A stretch of DNA of 4,346 nucleotides from a virus (Duplodnaviria > Heunggongvirae > Uroviricota > Caudoviricetes): IMG/VR virus record IMGVR_UViG_2681813320_000022; one strand, written 5' to 3'. The position numbers and the translations under genes are program-made. Under the pieces are notes generated by a model, which had not been told where the DNA came from, ran no database searches, and saw only the letters and a list, made by a program, of their open reading frames with translations. Below, in pieces: positions 1-4,346 of the stretch (positions within the stretch are counted from its first letter, which is position 1; the number at the start of each line of letters is the position of its first letter).

Positions 1-103
1 GAGTTGATGGCTCATGATGTCCCTCTGGGATGCGCTCCGGATGAATATGATGATCTCATATCAGGAACTTGTTCGCACCTTCCTTAGTTAGTGTGGCTTT
101 TAG

Positions 104-427: not shown

Positions 428-2461
428 TTAAGAATCAGCCTGACTCGGGATCAGTTTTTGCCAGATAACTGAAACGTATTTTGCCTGGTAACGGGCGTCA
501 TCAAGTGCATTATGGCGCTCACCTTCGAATGGAATAGCCGTTCTGGCATCGAAGTCTATGGCTTTCCCCAGCTCAACGATTGTGCGTACATCGCGATCGT
601 TGTAGTAACGCCACGGGCAGGGGATCCCCTGCCGTTCGTATGAACGGCGCAAAATCGTGTTGTCGAAGTTGGCTCCATTTCCCCAAACCTGAACAAAAAA
701 TTCACCGGAGTTTTCGTCGATAAATTCTCGCAATTGTAACAGTGCATCATCTAACGGGATTTCATCGGTCATAATGGCAGATTGCGCTTCGCGTGATTGC
801 TTAAGCCACCATTTAATGGTGTCCCGATCAATGACTCCGCCAGCAGTTTCCAGATCGATAGTCTTACTAAATTCCGGTCCCATATCTCCGGTTTGCGGAT
901 CGAAAAATATTGCACCTATTGAGATGATCGGGGCATCAGGATTTTTTCCCATGGTTTCAAGGTCGATCATTAGATGGTCACACGTCCTGCTGGTGGATGT
1001 GATTTCGTGATGACTGTTCACCTTAATTGGGTGATCTGCCGTCTCGCCAGTTTCATTATCGCTATTGTGATGCTGATTGCCGCCAGTGTTCTCCTTGTGT
1101 GGATGTTCAGCGCCTTCCATTTCCTCCGGATCATCTTCCTGAACTTCAACCTGATACTCTTCATCGAATGTTTCTTGGTATGTTGCGTCGCCCATCACCG
1201 CGCCACAATCAGGGCAGTTGCCGCCGCCGGTCTGACCGCAGGCGGTGCAGACTTTTTCCACTTCCTGTTGCGCTACTGGTTCAGGCTGTTTCGTTTCTGG
1301 CTCGTTTTGTAACGCATTTGGACTGTTTTGTTCCGCTTTTTGGTAGTTCCGTTCCGATTCATGCTGGTTCTGGTTCACAGAATCGCGGGTCTGGAGCCCC
1401 TTAACCCATTTCGGATCATTCGGGTCACTAATCCCTTCAACAAATTCACCACGTGATGCAGCAAGCAACTTATCGGCGTCAGGCTGGCTGATATTGGCTG
1501 CCTGCATAATTTTGTTTACTTCGTCAGCGGTAACTTTTATCGGCTCTGGTTGTTCTGAATCTTCAGCGGTATCTACATTTTGCGGTAAGCCCGTGTATGT
1601 GCCATTTTTTCGGGCAAAATATTCTTCTTTTGTGATTTCAGTGGCGCCAGCAGCCAGTGCCTTATCCAGACCAGAGAGTTTGTTTGCGCGACCGTATTTT
1701 TCTCCGTCCTTATCTGCGAAGAGGAAATAGAACGGCCCCTCACGCTCTACAGATGGTTCAGCTTCCGGCGCGGTTTCATTTTTTGGGATATCAGATACCT
1801 CAGTTTCCACTGCATCAGTTTGTGTTTCTGATGACTGGAGAACATCAACAGTGCCCAGGTCTGTTTCTTCATTCTCAAACACGCCCTTTGTCGTCAGGTA
1901 TTCGCAGATATATTTGTTCAGTGCTACGGGATCTTTGTGAATGTCGATCGGACGCTCACGGACAAGGCCAAAAATAGTTTGGCGGTCGTAGCGAAGGGCA
2001 TCAGGCTGTTTGCGCATTGATGCCGAGATACGCTTCCAGTCTTCGCGGTCGTTGTCGATAACTTCTTTTTTTGCCCAGCGATGGATGCTGCCGTCAATGT
2101 TTCCGGCATCCACATCACTAGGCCAGAGAGCGTAGGCCAGTTCGTCATCCAGTGTTTTCCATGTCTGCTTGTATTCGCGATGAATGGCAGCAATGACCGG
2201 GCTGATTTTTCCTGTTGAATTTTCAGTGTACTGTTGATTGGCTCTGGCGCGGGCGAGATCAACAACAGACGTGTATTTTCCGGTTTCCTTGCGTTCACCT
2301 TCGCGACGTTTTTTCCAGATGCGCATCTCTGCCTGAATTTCGGGCCATTTAGCACCAGGAATACATTTATGCTTAACCCACCCAATGGCGTGCAACTTAA
2401 GCTCCGGATACGGGTTATTCCCCTCTGAACAGGCGCGTAAGGACTGGCAAAACGCCCGCAA
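428..2461 (-). CDS. Prophage exonuclease: C-terminal DnaQ-like DEDDh 3'-5' exonuclease domain, central CxxC-x7-CxxC zinc ribbon, acidic/His-rich linker, N-terminal domain of unknown function
   Basis: Uninterrupted 677-codon frame ending in TAA at 430..428. All DEDDh motifs are present in order: Exo I MIDLET (D500/E502, nt 956..964), Exo II VWGNGANFD (D600, nt 662..664), Exo III HNALDD (H650 nt 512..514, D655 nt 497..499). Zinc ribbon CTACGQTGGGNCPDCG at nt 1205..1249. The annotated start at 2461 is TTG; the real start may be internal (TTG at 2395 with GGAG SD, or ATG at 2326), so the 5' end is uncertain. Confidence 0.8.
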   Translation of the reverse strand: MRAFCQSLRACSEGNNPYPELKLHAIGWVKHKCIPGAKWPEIQAEMRIWKKRREGERKETGKYTSVVDLARARANQQYTENSTGKISPVIAAIHREYKQTWKTLDDELAYALWPSDVDAGNIDGSIHRWAKKEVIDNDREDWKRISASMRKQPDALRYDRQTIFGLVRERPIDIHKDPVALNKYICEYLTTKGVFENEETDLGTVDVLQSSETQTDAVETEVSDIPKNETAPEAEPSVEREGPFYFLFADKDGEKYGRANKLSGLDKALAAGATEITKEEYFARKNGTYTGLPQNVDTAEDSEQPEPIKVTADEVNKIMQAANISQPDADKLLAASRGEFVEGISDPNDPKWVKGLQTRDSVNQNQHESERNYQKAEQNSPNALQNEPETKQPEPVAQQEVEKVCTACGQTGGGNCPDCGAVMGDATYQETFDEEYQVEVQEDDPEEMEGAEHPHKENTGGNQHHNSDNETGETADHPIKVNSHHEITSTSRTCDHLMIDLETMGKNPDAPIISIGAIFFDPQTGDMGPEFSKTIDLETAGGVIDRDTIKWWLKQSREAQSAIMTDEIPLDDALLQLREFIDENSGEFFVQVWGNGANFDNTILRRSYERQGIPCPWRYYNDRDVRTIVELGKAIDFDARTAIPFEGERHNALDDARYQAKYVSVIWQKLIPSQADS

Positions 2462-2651: not shown

Positions 2652-3004
2652 GTGCACCGGCAACCATTCTTGATATGTGCTGTGGCAGCCGCATGTTCTG
2701 GTTCGATAAGTCTGACGAACGGGCGATATTCAGCGATATCAGAAAAGAAGGATACACATTACGCAATGGGAGACGCTTGATTATCAGCCCTGACATTATC
2801 GCAGATTTTCGTGCATTATCATTTGCAGACGCATCTTTTTCGATGGTTGTATTAGACCCTCCGCATCTTGAGAGTGTTGGTGATAACGCCTGGATGGGAA
2901 AGAAATATGGACGGCTGAATAAAGATGCCTGGCGTGATGATTCGCGACAGAGATTTAAAGAAGCCTTTCGGGTGTTGAGGCCGCACGGCGTTCTGATTTT
3001 TTAA
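2648..3004 (+). CDS. SAM-dependent DNA methyltransferase-like protein (motif I then motif IV, gamma-like order), short and probably truncated or interrupted
   Basis: 118-codon ORF with motif I-like ILDMCCGS (nt about 2669..2692), catalytic motif IV DPPH (nt 2855..2866) about 60 aa later, and a RVLRPHGVLIF strand typical of the Rossmann methyltransferase fold. It stops at TAA 3002..3004, after which the same frame is open for 29 more codons to TAA 3092..3094. No C-terminal target-recognition region is present. Confidence 0.55.
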   Translation: MSAPATILDMCCGSRMFWFDKSDERAIFSDIRKEGYTLRNGRRLIISPDIIADFRALSFADASFSMVVLDPPHLESVGDNAWMGKKYGRLNKDAWRDDSRQRFKEAFRVLRPHGVLIF

Positions 3005-3237
3005 TGGAATGAAACGCAAATACCGGTAAGCCAGATTCTGGCACTGACAGACAGAAAACCTGTTATCTGTCAACGAACAGGGAAAAAACGATAAAACCCA
3101 CTGGATTATTTTTATGAAAGAGGCATCCAGTGAGTAGATTCGTAAGGCTACAGATACGTATATCTGAATAATTAAATTCAGTTCTGTAAATAAAATTTAA
3201 TCCTTAACCGGATGGATTTCTGCACCCTCAGAACATC

Positions 3238-3266
3238 AGGAGGCCGCCCGAAAGGGCGGTAGTGAA
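3238..3266 (+). promoter_or_regulatory. Structured ribosome-binding site: AGGAGG, then a 6-bp GC stem with GAAA tetraloop, then 7 nt to the ATG
   Basis: AGGAGG at 3238..3243; stem CCGCCC (3244..3249) / GGGCGG (3254..3259) with GAAA loop (3250..3253); ATG at 3267. Linear SD-to-ATG spacing is 23 nt; with the hairpin folded it is about 7 nt. Confidence 0.45.
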
Positions 3267-3377
3267 ATGCGAAAGTTCAAAATTATTATTGAAACGGGAA
3301 TAGCTGGTGGAGATTTTGAGGATGTATTCGAAGTGGACGATGACGCAACACCTGAGGAAATTCATGACGGAGCATAA
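3267..3377 (+). CDS. Small acidic protein, 36 aa (MRKFKIIIETGIAGGDFEDVFEVDDDATPEEIHDGA)
   Basis: ATG start served by the structured RBS above; TAA at 3375..3377. Eleven of 36 residues are Asp/Glu. The frame stays open for 23 further codons after the TAA, up to TGA 3447..3449. Confidence 0.4.
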   Translation: MRKFKIIIETGIAGGDFEDVFEVDDDATPEEIHDGA

Positions 3378-3441
3378 GAAATTTTCTTTAACTACTGCAA
3401 TTACTCATACCACGAAATAAAAGACGATGAGGAAGAACAAA

Positions 3442-3618
3442 GTGGCTGATTTTTGTTCAGCTAAATATAACATCAGTTTTGAAGAGCGGGATGAACTATT
3501 AATGGACTATGGTGAGTTACGCGGTGGAAGTGCTGCTGATGTCGAATCCTAGCGTGATGACTATGAAGCGGGAAAAACTCCGGTCGAAGCATATTGTGAT
3601 GAGTGGGGCGATGAATGA
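3442..3618 (+). pseudogene. Small acidic ORF with an in-frame TAG at 3550..3552: 36 codons from GTG 3442 (41 from ATG 3427), then 22 open codons to a TGA that overlaps the next start
   Basis: GTG 3442 is preceded by GAGGAAG with a 6-nt spacer. After the TAG the frame has no stop and no internal start for 22 codons and ends in an ATGA overlap with the ATG at 3615. This is either a nonsense-interrupted gene or a 36-41 aa gene followed by a chance open frame. Confidence 0.3.
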
Positions 3619-3902
3619 GCGAGATTAATTATCAGGAAGGGCATGAAACGGCGGGGCAAGCAAAACCAGTGGCATGGCGATATCGCTACGTGAAAAAAGG
3701 CGTTACGGACTTTCAGGGGAAGTAGTGGTCTGGTGACTGGAAATATGTACCGAAAAAAGAGGATTGTAACGACAGGCCGAACTATCAAATTCAGGCCTTA
3801 TTCACTGCCTCACCAGTCCCAGTTACATCAGAAGAACTGGTTAAAGCTGTGCACTTTTATGAACAACTAAAACGCGAAAATCCACCAACATCCGGCAACT
3901 AG
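3615..3902 (+). pseudogene. Hypothetical protein gene with an in-frame amber at 3723..3725 (36 codons, TAG, then 58 open codons to TAG 3900..3902)
   Basis: ATG 3615 overlaps the upstream TGA (ATGA). The 58 codons after the TAG have no in-frame ATG, GTG or TTG. They read as ordinary mixed protein (WSGDWKYVPKKEDCNDRPNYQIQALF...), whereas the alternative frame ORF at 3745..3870 is Lys/Arg-rich as expected for an out-of-frame read. Confidence 0.4.
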
Positions 3903-4145
3903 ATTAATGGATTAACTATGTCGGTTAAACGACCAGCCAACTGAAAAAGCGGAAACCTGATTACAGGTTGCCAGATAAGGCAATGAGCTACCTGGCGCGG
4001 AACGGACTGATAAGTATGGGGAATGTTTTACGATGAACCTTTAGACTAAAGAGTTTGTAACGCTATGTAAGTGATTTTTTCTGGTTTAGATATTTATATG
4101 TCCGGCCAAATTGAGGTGTGTTTAAATGTAATTGCACATTGATTG

Positions 4146-4156: not shown

Positions 4157-4252
4157 ATGAAAAACGCATTGCAGTTTTTGTTTGTTGCGTTCTGGTTGTT
4201 CGCATCATGTATGCCCATCATCTTCACAGCGGTAATGACTCCAACTTATTGA
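4157..4252 (+). pseudogene. 5' fragment of a gene encoding a protein with a hydrophobic N-terminus (MKNALQFLFVAFWLFASCMPIIFTA), disrupted by IS1 insertion
   Basis: Strong SD plus ATG. The first 24-25 codons (4157..4230) are host or prophage sequence; from 4231 the frame continues into the IS1 terminal inverted repeat and stops at TGA 4250..4252 inside IS1, so the native 3' portion is displaced. Confidence 0.45.
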
Positions 4253-4346
4253 TAGTGTTTTATGTTCAGATAATGCCCGATGACTTTGTCATGCAGCTCC
4301 ACCGATTTTGAGAACGACAGCGACTTCCGTCCCAGCCGTGCCAGGT
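4231..4346 (-). mobile_element. IS1 insertion sequence, right-end inverted repeat plus 3' part of insB (partial; continues beyond the window)
   Basis: 4231..4253 GGTAATGACTCCAACTTATTGAT is the IS1 terminal inverted repeat. The following 93 nt match, from memory of the well-known IS1 sequence, the reverse complement of the IS1 right end (...CTGCATGACAAAGTCATCGGGCATTATCTGAACATAAAACACTATCAATAAGTTGGAGTCATTACC). Confidence 0.9.
4246..4346 (-). CDS. insB: IS1 transposase InsB, C-terminal end (partial; 5' part lies outside the window)
   Basis: The minus-strand reading ends ...[29 protein letters not shown] with its TAA stop at 4248..4246 inside the terminal inverted repeat, as in canonical IS1. Confidence 0.8.

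What the first reader, a model, noticed from the sequence alone, without database searches (positions are those of the whole stretch)
3238..3269. Consensus Shine-Dalgarno separated from its start codon by a GNRA-tetraloop hairpin
AGGAGG (3238..3243) lies 23 nt from ATG 3267, too far for efficient initiation on linear mRNA. The intervening 16 nt form a perfect 6-bp GC stem with a GAAA loop, so folding places the SD about 7 nt from the AUG. Hairpin-juxtaposed split ribosome-binding sites are known for a few phage genes (for example in T4). Here it would make translation of the acidic-ORF cluster depend on RNA folding, or offer a protein or RNase III target.
Basis: partly seen in the sequence, partly recalled or inferred. 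Interest (0 to 1): 0.5.

Follow-up and report, generated by a model that had tools for sequence, protein, structure and literature searches.

The report
Hairpin-bridged ribosome-binding site in prophage
A strong ribosome-binding sequence sits 23 bases from its start codon, a very stable RNA hairpin very probably folds that gap down to about 7 bases, and the same arrangement heads several different genes in E. coli prophages, although the copy in this window now sits in front of a dead gene.

Summary
AGGAGG (3238-3243) directly abuts a perfect 6-bp G-C stem with a GAAA loop (3244-3259). Seven bases later comes ATG 3267, the start of a DUF7167 gene. One of 2000 dinucleotide shuffles of the window gave the full arrangement.

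The window is a decayed lambdoid (Qin/Rac-like) E. coli prophage between IS ends. The DUF7167 gene here has an internal stop, so this copy is a relic.

Related phages carry the same unit of about 70 nt, made of a leader, the SD and the hairpin. It precedes at least five unrelated genes:
- DUF7167, DUF4014, an Ea22-like gene and an unknown 196-aa gene, whose ATG lies 6-9 nt after the hairpin with no other SD.
- A Q antiterminator, which lies 11 nt away and has its own GGAG.

A Klebsiella DUF7167 homologue has GGAGG-7 nt-ATG and no hairpin. T4 gene 38, read directly here, has the same anatomy.

Best reading: a T4-type split ribosome-binding site, a new member of a known kind. The weak points are:
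- Covariation is not significant.
- The loop is not always GNRA.
- A few variants have weak stems.
- Nothing has been tested experimentally.

RNase III, terminator and boxB readings fail their defining features.

The parts
3164..3198 (+). A/T-rich start of the shared intergenic leader, with a weak A/T inverted repeat (TTAAATT...AATTTAA). Homology with distant relatives begins here, at the stop codon of whatever gene lies upstream.
   Evidence: Matches to about 92%-identical relatives start at query base 115, which is window 3164. The sequence is variable but always A/T-rich in relatives. No consistent sigma-70 promoter or terminator was found.
3199..3209 (+). Invariant block AATCCTTAACC. Together with the following GGAGG it serves elsewhere as the plain ribosome-binding site of a 70-aa gene.
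   Evidence: The block is invariant apart from two rarely varying columns (3206 and 3209) in 51 unique leaders. AATCCTTAAC(T/C)GGAGG-TATATCT-ATG heads the gene MSNTQK... in L067 at 167-193.
3211..3229 (+). Upstream hairpin 1, consensus GAGGG-AUUUCUGCA-CCCUC. The window has GATGG, which is a U.C mismatch. The 5' arm is an SD-like GGAGGG.
   Evidence: It folds at -5.8 kcal/mol in the consensus and -2.1 in the window. 96.9% of cells are paired. L034 carries GAGUG/CACUC, a register-shifted perfect stem. A competing hairpin AAUCCUU/AGGGAUU is also predicted.
3230..3237 (+). Single-stranded linker AGAACATC between hairpin 1 and the SD.
   Evidence: Alignment and fold.
3238..3243 (+). Shine-Dalgarno sequence AGGAGG.
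   Evidence: Its duplex with the 16S 3' end is -10.3 kcal/mol. It reads AGGAGG in 77 of 102 unique contexts; the others are AGGAGA, GGGAGG and CGGAGG, plus four single-copy forms (AGGGGG, GGGATG, AGGAAG, AGGAGT).
3244..3249 (+). Hairpin 2, 5' arm CCGCCC.
   Evidence: This arm is the more variable one (diversity 0.159), mostly through C-to-U changes that keep a G.U pair.
3250..3253 (+). Hairpin 2, tetraloop GAAA.
   Evidence: The loop varies among relatives: GAAA 90, GGCA 9, GUCA 2, UAAA 1.
3254..3259 (+). Hairpin 2, 3' arm GGGCGG.
   Evidence: Diversity is 0.066.
3260..3266 (+). 7-nt spacer TAGTGAA with no SD-like motif. U3260 can pair with G3243 as a seventh pair.
   Evidence: The spacer is 7 nt in 25 of 26 unique DUF7167 cassettes.
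3267..3449 (+). DUF7167 gene, a pseudogene here with an in-frame TAA at 3375-3377. ATG 3267 is the start served by the cassette.
   Evidence: Pfam PF23768 scores E = 2.8e-14 on the intact homologue. RefSeq annotates 'DUF7167 family protein, internal stop' in a 100%-identical genome.
3442..3618 (+). Second acidic small ORF (58 aa when intact). Its start overlaps the end of DUF7167. Here it has a GTG start and an in-frame TAG at 3550-3552.
   Evidence: intact form at L067 1676-1852.
3615..3944 (+). Third ORF of the cluster, whose start overlaps the previous stop (ATGA). It corresponds to the C-terminal part of the Ea22-like proteins and is broken by TAG at 3723 and 3900.
   Evidence: compare with the L224 protein. 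RefSeq: 'frameshifted; internal stop'.

Best explanation
This is a split (hairpin-bridged) translation initiation region of the phage T4 gene 38/25 type. It sits in the early-right (nin-like) region of Qin/Rac-like lambdoid prophages of E. coli. On the mRNA, the 16 nt between AGGAGG and the spacer fold into a very stable, tetraloop-capped G-C hairpin. That hairpin is looped out, so the SD/anti-SD helix comes to lie about 6-7 nt (plus the width of one base pair) from the AUG, inside the optimal window. The 30S subunit binds the exposed SD and accommodates the closed hairpin on its platform. Initiation at ATG 3267 then feeds the overlapping, probably translationally coupled, small acidic ORFs downstream. 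Because the hairpin is about -12 to -14 kcal/mol, it should be folded essentially always. It is a fixed architectural part of the ribosome-binding site, not a switch. The SD-hairpin unit, usually with a conserved 45-nt leader in front, is portable: it sits at a mosaic junction and serves whichever gene recombination places behind it. Shown here: the sequence anatomy, the predicted folding, its conservation and its reuse. Inferred: that the hairpin is accommodated by the ribosome and is needed for efficient initiation. In this particular window the unit is a fossil, because the gene behind it is inactivated.
For: (1) Anatomy and stability. The SD abuts the stem, followed by a 7-nt spacer and the ATG. 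The hairpin folds at -12.4/-14.4 kcal/mol, with stem pair probability of at least 0.95 in seven contexts. The arrangement appeared in 1 of 2000 shuffles. (2) Reuse. The same SD-hairpin precedes DUF7167 (spacer 6-7 nt), DUF4014 (6 nt), Ea22-like MTELTK/MAELTK genes (8-9 nt) and the MQDIKE gene (9 nt). The spacer has no SD-like motif in 47 of those 48 unique cassettes. The only family with a longer spacer (11 nt) is a Q antiterminator, PF06530, and it carries its own proximal GGAG. (3) Removing the 16-nt hairpin from the E. coli sequence leaves AGGAGG-TAGTGAA-ATG. The Klebsiella phage homologue has exactly that layout, GGAGG-CTGAGTG-ATG, with no hairpin. (4) The minimal unit (SD, hairpin, spacer) also occurs without the long leader, directly after the stop of a 70-aa gene (L067 407-435). 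(5) 84 of 102 unique contexts keep all six pairs as Watson-Crick or G.U. The commonest changes are C-to-U in the C-rich arm, which keeps a G.U pair. The G-rich arm, where G-to-A would break pairs, is 2.4-fold less diverse (0.066 against 0.159). That asymmetry fits a structure in the plus-strand RNA. One pair shows G-C, A-U and G.U forms. (6) T4 gene 38, read here, is UAAGGAG-AGGGGC UUCG GCCCUU-CUAAAU-AUG. Its 41-nt fold is -16.7 kcal/mol (z -3.65) against -16.9 (z -3.27) for the window. The T4 mechanism is documented in PMC3014915. (7) The alternative cryptic SD in the loop and 3' arm binds the anti-SD more weakly (-8.3 against -10.3 kcal/mol) and is locked inside the hairpin.
Against: Covariation is not statistically supported. 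95.3% of cells are paired against 95.2% in column shuffles, and only one pair has two-sided changes. The sequences are too similar to each other (mean column identity 92%). The 5' arm is as diverse as third codon positions (0.159 against 0.153). Fourteen of 102 contexts have one mismatch and four have two, with hairpins as weak as -2.6 to -4.4 kcal/mol in front of intact DUF7167 genes. Conservation of the unit could be driven by recombination at a mosaic junction rather than by selection on translation. Predicted SD accessibility is only moderate (0.27-0.83). There are no expression, transcript-end or ribosome data. The copy in the window precedes a pseudogene.
Confidence: 0.6

Rival explanations
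1. The hairpin is a junction or linker element. It is kept because it lies at a mosaic boundary where homologous recombination swaps gene cassettes. It may also act as an mRNA stabiliser or insulator between cistrons. It contributes nothing positive to initiation, and may simply be tolerated or even dampen translation of accessory genes.
For: Sequence similarity between cassettes with different genes ends 2-4 nt after the hairpin. Two direct copies lie 1066 bp apart in L067. L082 and L054 look like deletions between such copies. The 5' arm evolves at about the synonymous rate and several intact genes have weak stems. Covariation is absent.
Against: This does not explain why the hairpin always sits exactly between the SD and a 6-9 nt spacer. 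It does not explain why four gene families have no other SD, or why the family at 11 nt has acquired one. A stabiliser or insulator would work anywhere in the intergenic region. The T4 precedent shows that this geometry is functional. The two explanations are not mutually exclusive.
Confidence: 0.2
2. The ribosome ignores the distal AGGAGG. The hairpin melts and initiation uses the cryptic SD-like AAGGGCGGU in the loop and 3' arm (6 nt from the AUG) or S1-dependent binding to the A/U-rich start of the gene. The hairpin then acts as a repressor of translation.
For: AAGGGCGGU pairs with the 16S 3' end at -8.3 kcal/mol in isolation. Variants that have lost the SD and the 5' arm (L038, L068) still carry an intact 60-codon ORF.
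Against: Opening the hairpin costs about 12.4 kcal/mol, so the net energy is unfavourable. In L038 the ORF is fused in frame to an upstream ORF (protein P0005), so it does not need its own SD. The AGGAGG is nearly invariant (diversity 0.041).
Confidence: 0.08
3. The hairpin, or the whole two-hairpin leader, is a protein-binding RNA operator or a nut/boxB-like antitermination signal. It would control entry of ribosomes or RNA polymerase into the nin-like accessory region.
For: The 45-nt leader in front of the SD is as conserved as first and second codon positions (0.043 against 0.037-0.042) and is not coding (frames analysed). AAUCCUUAAC loosely resembles boxA, and a GNRA-capped G-C hairpin resembles boxB (both recalled from memory).
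Against: The loop sequence varies (GAAA, GGCA, GUCA, UAAA), which a loop-reading protein such as N would not tolerate. The element lies after the replication genes, not after the early promoters. Rfam gives nothing (best hit 16.6 bits against a threshold of 60). The minimal SD-hairpin also occurs without the leader.
Confidence: 0.07
4. It is an intrinsic terminator, an RNase III processing site, or a DNA-level palindrome such as a protein-binding site.
For: It is a G-C-rich perfect inverted repeat.
Against: No T-run follows on either strand and the terminator scan does not call it. The stem is 6-7 bp, whereas RNase III needs roughly two helical turns (established knowledge). The asymmetric substitution pattern of the two arms points to an RNA structure on the plus strand, not a DNA site.
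Confidence: 0.03

Closest known systems
Phage T4 gene 38 translation initiation region (split SD-AUG bridged by a hairpin)
   Same: A consensus-like SD directly abuts a G-C stem capped by an extra-stable tetraloop. A short A/U-rich spacer and the AUG follow. The linear spacing is 22 nt in T4 and 23 nt here. The effective spacing is 5 nt in T4 and 7 nt here. The 41-nt fold energies and z-scores are nearly equal (-16.7 and -3.65 against -16.9 and -3.27).
   Different: The T4 loop is UUCG and the loop here is GAAA (variable in relatives). T4 is a virulent phage and its element serves one late gene. Here a temperate lambdoid prophage reuses the unit in front of at least five unrelated early-region genes. 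The T4 case is proven by mutagenesis; this one is not tested.
Phage T4 gene 25 (26-25 junction) 'accommodated' ribosome-binding site
   Same: A hairpin between SD and AUG reduces the spacing (27 to 11 nt). It is conserved only within a close group of phages and absent in more distant relatives (PMC3014915). That parallels the hairpin-less Klebsiella homologue here.
   Different: I did not read the gene 25 sequence here. Its effective spacing is longer and it sits at one fixed gene junction.
E. coli thrS 'split ribosome-binding site'
   Same: The ribosome accommodates a folded hairpin within its binding site without unfolding it (PMC3936740).
   Different: In thrS the hairpin lies upstream of the SD and separates two single-stranded ribosome contact regions, and it doubles as an operator for ThrRS. 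Here the hairpin lies between the SD and the AUG.
Lambda boxB / nut hairpins
   Same: A short G-C stem with a GNRA-type loop in a lambdoid early transcript.
   Different: boxB has a conserved pentaloop read by N, a boxA partner, and lies just after pL/pR. Here the loop varies, the position is after the replication genes, and the hairpin lies inside a ribosome-binding site.

Membership tests
T4-type split (hairpin-bridged) translation initiation region | A strong SD complementary to the 16S 3' end | tested here: met
   AGGAGG forms a duplex of -10.3 kcal/mol, against -9.3 for the T4 gene 38 SD.
T4-type split (hairpin-bridged) translation initiation region | Linear SD-AUG spacing well beyond the functional range (more than about 13-15 nt) | tested here: met
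   23 nt (3244-3266); T4 gene 38 has 22 nt.
T4-type split (hairpin-bridged) translation initiation region | The intervening sequence forms a stable hairpin that leaves 5-11 nt of effective spacing | tested here: met
   -12.4/-14.4 kcal/mol; pair probability of at least 0.95; 7 nt left (6-9 nt in the other gene contexts). This is a prediction only, with no probing data.
T4-type split (hairpin-bridged) translation initiation region | No alternative SD at normal distance from the AUG | tested here: met
   The spacer TAGTGAA has no SD-like motif, and the same holds for 47 of 48 unique cassettes in the four families with 6-9 nt spacers. The 11-nt family has its own GGAG. A cryptic AAGGGCGGU is locked inside the stem.
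T4-type split (hairpin-bridged) translation initiation region | The structure is conserved among relatives, ideally with compensatory changes | tested here: inconclusive
   94.1% of hairpin cells are paired and 84 of 102 contexts are fully paired. Only one pair has two-sided changes, and the scores equal those of the shuffles.
T4-type split (hairpin-bridged) translation initiation region | Stem-disrupting mutations lower translation and compensatory mutations restore it | not testable with these tools
   Needs reporter fusions, toeprinting or structure probing.
Intrinsic (Rho-independent) terminator | A G-C hairpin followed by a run of U | tested here: not met
   The hairpin is followed by UAGUGAAAUG, and by CCUCCUGAUG on the minus strand. 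The scan does not call it.
RNase III processing site | About 20 bp or more of double-stranded RNA | tested here: not met
   The stem is 6-7 bp. The length requirement comes from established knowledge.
Lambda-type nut site (boxA + boxB) | A conserved GNRA-like boxB loop, a boxA consensus upstream, and a location just downstream of pL/pR | tested here: not met
   The loop varies: GAAA, GGCA, GUCA, UAAA. The site lies after the O/LygF/methyltransferase genes. AAUCCUUAAC is only boxA-like (from memory).
Any Rfam 15 family | A score at or above the family's gathering threshold | tested here: not met
   The best hit is SscA at 16.6 bits against a threshold of 60, E = 4.2.

The most novel reading that the evidence does not exclude
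The whole conserved unit of about 95 nt would be a previously undescribed portable cis-regulatory RNA of E. coli lambdoid prophages. Its parts are an A/T-rich repeat, the invariant AAUCCUUAACC, an SD-mimic hairpin (GGAGGG...CCCUC) that can switch with a competing AAUCCUU/AGGGAUU hairpin, the true SD, and the bridging hairpin. On this reading it gates translation of whatever accessory gene is recombined behind it. It also serves as the homology patch that lets gene cassettes be swapped, deleted or duplicated in the nin-like region.
Probability: 0.15. Interest if true: 0.65.

Novelty: new member of a known kind. Interest (0 to 1): 0.45.

Why it matters
Hairpin-bridged ribosome-binding sites are textbook curiosities known from two genes of the virulent phage T4. 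If reporter assays confirm this one, it would be an example in temperate lambdoid prophages. It would also be a widespread one: about half of complete E. coli genomes match this 701-nt region, and about a quarter carry most of it. The element would act as a reusable module in front of unrelated genes.

This has practical consequences. Gene callers and RBS models that demand an SD within about 15 nt will misjudge these starts. Several database entries already extend the ORF upstream through the hairpin. The cassette is also a natural, compact design for a structured RBS of fixed geometry. For this particular window the element is a relic in a decaying prophage, so it has no present physiological role there.

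Tried and rejected
- Rfam scan of 3000-3450 at E up to 10 gave only noise.
- The promoter and terminator scan called nothing at the hairpin. The one promoter-like hit (3262-3289) is within chance expectation.
- Formal covariation (count of structure pairs and RNAalifold on 51 unique leaders) was no better than the shuffles.
- A kissing interaction between the hairpin 1 loop (UUUC) and the GAAA loop was rejected. The loop variants GGCA and GUCA have no matching change in the other loop (by eye).
- Coding potential of the leader was rejected. The frame in phase with ATG 3267 is open for 22 codons but has no start codon, and variation shows no three-base periodicity. The other two frames have no start or are closed. 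The upstream-extended database proteins (P0001, P0004, P0007) are gene-caller artefacts of indels or a lost ATG.
- A long-range pairing of the leader with the DUF7167 coding region was rejected as a general feature, because the leader also precedes other genes.
- A link to the EHEC prophage anti-sRNAs (AgvB/AsxR) was rejected. Those lie downstream of pR' (PMC4104026).
- A full-text search for the exact hairpin and leader sequences found no papers.
- The genome-contig scan found only two loci, so the family is essentially confined to Escherichia and Shigella.
- The many nonsense codons in the window were checked for excess. About 5 among roughly 136 differences from the nearest intact relatives is close to what neutral decay would give.

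Full report
**What is in the window.**
- AGGAGG lies at 3238-3243.
- CCGCCC-GAAA-GGGCGG lies at 3244-3259.
- The spacer TAGTGAA lies at 3260-3266.
- The ATG lies at 3267.

The linear SD-to-AUG gap is 23 nt, and 7 nt remain when the 16-nt hairpin is closed. The hairpin alone folds at -12.4 kcal/mol, or -14.4 if G3243 pairs with U3260 as a seventh pair. Its pairs have a predicted probability of at least 0.95 in every sequence context I tried.

The 41-nt stretch around it is much more stable than shuffles (-16.9 kcal/mol, z = -3.27, 0 of 200 shuffles as stable). The wider 101 nt is not unusual (z = -1.38). It is the only all-G-C six-pair hairpin in the window. The full arrangement, with the SD abutting a hairpin and an ATG 4-10 nt later, appeared in 1 of 2000 dinucleotide shuffles.

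**Where the window comes from.** It is a decayed lambdoid prophage of the Qin/Rac type.
- It is 100% identical to E. coli chromosomes and 99.9% identical to prophage PhiR42_1 of ECOR13.
- It is bounded by an IS5-like end (1-80) and an IS1 end (4231-4346).
- On the minus strand lie an excisionase and a 677-codon ORF with an Rv2179c-like 3'-5' exoribonuclease domain.
- On the plus strand lie a DUF977 fragment, a truncated SAM methyltransferase, a 262-nt intergenic region that holds the finding, and then three small overlapping acidic ORFs.

ATG 3267 starts a DUF7167 (PF23768) gene. In the window, and in the whole clade at 99% identity or more, that gene and both ORFs behind it carry in-frame stops at 3375, 3550, 3723 and 3900. 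Intact 60-aa versions are about 90% identical. The copy in the window is therefore a fossil, and the element has to be judged on its relatives.

**The hairpin in relatives.** I collected 286 loci from IMG/VR, GenBank phages, E. coli genomes and assemblies. Counts from the 102 unique 100-nt contexts of the SD-hairpin:

| Feature | Count |
|---|---|
| All six pairs kept as Watson-Crick or G.U | 84 |
| One mismatch | 14 |
| Two mismatches | 4 |
| Loop GAAA / GGCA / GUCA / UAAA | 90 / 9 / 2 / 1 |
| SD reads AGGAGG | 77 |

- The GNRA identity of the loop is therefore not required.
- The remaining SD forms are AGGAGA, GGGAGG and CGGAGG, plus four single-copy forms.
- One pair occurs as G-C, A-U, G.U and A.C.
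- The C-rich 5' arm varies as much as third codon positions (0.159 against 0.153), mostly by C-to-U, which keeps a G.U pair.
- The G-rich 3' arm, where G-to-A would break a pair, varies 2.4-fold less (0.066). That asymmetry is what selection on a plus-strand RNA stem would produce.
- The formal test, however, is negative. 95.3% of cells are paired against 95.2% in column shuffles, with one pair showing two-sided changes, and RNAalifold finds no covariation term. The sequences are simply too alike (92% mean column identity).
- A few intact genes sit behind weak stems of -2.6 to -4.4 kcal/mol.

**The most informative result: the unit is portable.** The same leader, SD and hairpin precede at least five unrelated genes.

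| Gene behind the cassette | Unique cassettes | Spacer (nt) | SD-like motif in spacer |
|---|---|---|---|
| DUF7167 | 26 | 7 (25), 6 (1) | 1 of 26 |
| Ea22-like MTELTK/MAELTK, 135-187 aa | 11 | 8-9 | none |
| DUF4014 membrane protein, 72 aa | 9 | 6 | none |
| Unknown MQDIKE protein, 158-196 aa | 2 | 9 | none |
| Q antiterminator (PF06530) | 3 | 11 | GGAG in all three |

- In the first four families, 47 of 48 unique cassettes have no SD-like motif in the spacer.
- The Q gene is the one family whose ATG lies further out, and its spacer TGGAGATAATA contains its own GGAG, 6 nt from the ATG.
- The minimal unit (SD, hairpin, 6-nt spacer) also occurs without the long leader, 5 nt after the stop of a 70-aa gene (L067 407-435).
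- The Klebsiella phage ST512-KPC3phi13.3 homologue of DUF7167 has no hairpin at all. It reads GGAGG-CTGAGTG-ATG and overlaps the upstream stop.
- Deleting the 16-nt hairpin from the E. coli sequence gives that same layout, AGGAGG-TAGTGAA-ATG.

So the hairpin behaves like an insertion into a canonical ribosome-binding site. That insertion is tolerated, and kept, only at a geometry that restores canonical spacing when it is folded.

**Comparison with the known case.** The review PMC3014915 records that T4 genes 38 and 25 have SD-AUG gaps of 22 and 27 nt. Hairpins reduce these to 5 and 11 nt, destabilising mutations lower initiation, and the arrangement is confined to close relatives.

I read T4 gene 38 directly: UAAGGAG-AGGGGC UUCG GCCCUU-CUAAAU-AUG. 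Its 41-nt fold is -16.7 kcal/mol, z = -3.65. The window element has the same anatomy. The SD abuts a G-C stem with an extra-stable tetraloop, a short A/U-rich spacer follows, and the stability is almost identical.

On the defining features of that class:
- Met here: a strong SD, an over-long linear gap, a stable bridging hairpin, and no proximal SD.
- Inconclusive: conserved structure with compensation.
- Cannot be tested with these tools: the mutational proof.

**How it most likely works (confidence about 0.6).** The hairpin is constitutively folded on the early-right transcript. The 30S subunit binds the exposed AGGAGG, and the closed hairpin is accommodated on the platform. The AUG, 6-7 nt beyond the base of the stem, is placed in the P site. 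Downstream ORFs overlap (ATGGCTGA and ATGA junctions) and are probably coupled to this entry point.

Because of its stability, the hairpin is an architectural element rather than a sensor. Shown here: anatomy, predicted folding, conservation of geometry, and reuse. Inferred: accommodation by the ribosome and dependence of expression on the stem.

**Rival explanations.**
- **Recombination linker, insulator or damper (about 0.2).** Similarity between cassettes ends 2-4 nt after the stem. Two direct copies lie 1066 bp apart in L067, and L082 and L054 look like deletions between copies. This explains the conservation but not the exact geometry, and it can coexist with the main explanation.
- **Initiation from the cryptic AAGGGCGGU after melting (about 0.08).** This is energetically unfavourable: -8.3 kcal/mol gained against 12.4 needed to open the stem.
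- **Protein operator or nut-like signal (about 0.07).** The loop varies, the position is wrong, and the minimal unit lacks the leader.
- **Terminator, RNase III site or DNA palindrome (about 0.03).** There is no U-run, the stem is too short, and the substitution pattern is strand-asymmetric.

**The leader.** The 45 nt in front of the SD (3199-3237) are as conserved as first and second codon positions (0.043), yet they are not coding.
- Their first 16 nt, AATCCTTAAC(C/T)GGAGG, are elsewhere the ordinary ribosome-binding site of a 70-aa gene.
- In the full leader that SD-like GGAGGG is the 5' arm of a second hairpin, GAGGG-9 nt-CCCUC, at -5.8 kcal/mol. It is broken by a G-to-T change in the window.
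- L034 has a register-shifted perfect version.
- A competing hairpin, AAUCCUU/AGGGAUU, is also possible.

I could not decide whether this is a regulatory device or a scar of cassette exchange. It is the basis of the more novel reading, to which I give a probability of about 0.15.

**Verdict.** This is a probable T4-type split ribosome-binding site, new for temperate lambdoid prophages and notable for its reuse in front of several genes. It is not experimentally tested, it lacks significant covariation, and it is vestigial in this window. Novelty: a new member of a known kind. Interest: 0.45.

Noticed in passing
window 1-80 and 4231-4346: The window is bounded by insertion-sequence ends: an IS5-like (ISKpn26 family) end on the left and an IS1 end on the right. 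No complete E. coli genome in the collection has both at these positions.
   Followed up: partly
window 3002, 3375, 3550, 3723, 3900: Every plus-strand gene after the DUF977 fragment carries in-frame nonsense codons: the methyltransferase, DUF7167, the 58-aa ORF and the Ea22-like ORF. All are shared by the clade at 99% identity or more. The number is about what neutral decay predicts given roughly 10% divergence from intact relatives.
   Followed up: yes
window 3199-3237 (leader) and L067 167-193: A non-coding 45-nt leader is as conserved as first and second codon positions. Its first 16 nt are elsewhere the plain ribosome-binding site of a 70-aa gene. It contains an SD-mimic hairpin (GAGGG/CCCUC, mutated to GATGG in the window) and a competing hairpin AAUCCUU/AGGGAUU.
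   Followed up: partly
L067 407-435 and 1472-1500; L082; L054: Two direct copies of the SD-hairpin cassette lie 1066 bp apart and flank four small genes. Other phages look like the product of a deletion between the copies, which suggests that the cassette mediates gene-cassette gain and loss.
   Followed up: partly
L236, L247, L255, L281: In some phages the cassette is followed directly by a Q antiterminator gene (PF06530), so the whole variable nin-like region is missing. That gene has its own GGAG 6 nt from the ATG.
   Followed up: partly
window 616-633: An 18-nt perfect palindrome, GGCAGGGGATCCCCTGCC, lies inside the minus-strand exoribonuclease ORF.
   Followed up: no
window 428-2461 (minus strand): A 677-codon ORF has a C-terminal Rv2179c-like 3'-5' exoribonuclease domain (E = 1.9e-67) and a long unassigned N-terminal part that includes a Cys-rich stretch. 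RefSeq marks it as partial.
   Followed up: no
window 3442-3449 and 3615-3618: The three small acidic ORFs overlap start-to-stop (ATGGCTGA in intact relatives, GTGGCTGA in the window, and ATGA). This suggests translational coupling to the cassette-driven first gene.
   Followed up: partly
proteins P0001, P0004, P0005, P0007, P0011: Database proteins of 84-109 aa extend DUF7167 upstream through the hairpin (…QEAARKGGSE-MRKFK…). Indels or a lost ATG made gene callers pick an upstream start, so these are annotation artefacts caused by the unusual RBS.
   Followed up: partly
PP818812.1 and JAIHTM010000290.1 = L084: An 'Actinobacillus phage' record and a 'Collinsella sp.' MAG contig carry this E. 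coli prophage segment at 92-94% identity. The host assignment is probably wrong, or the records are contaminated.
   Followed up: no
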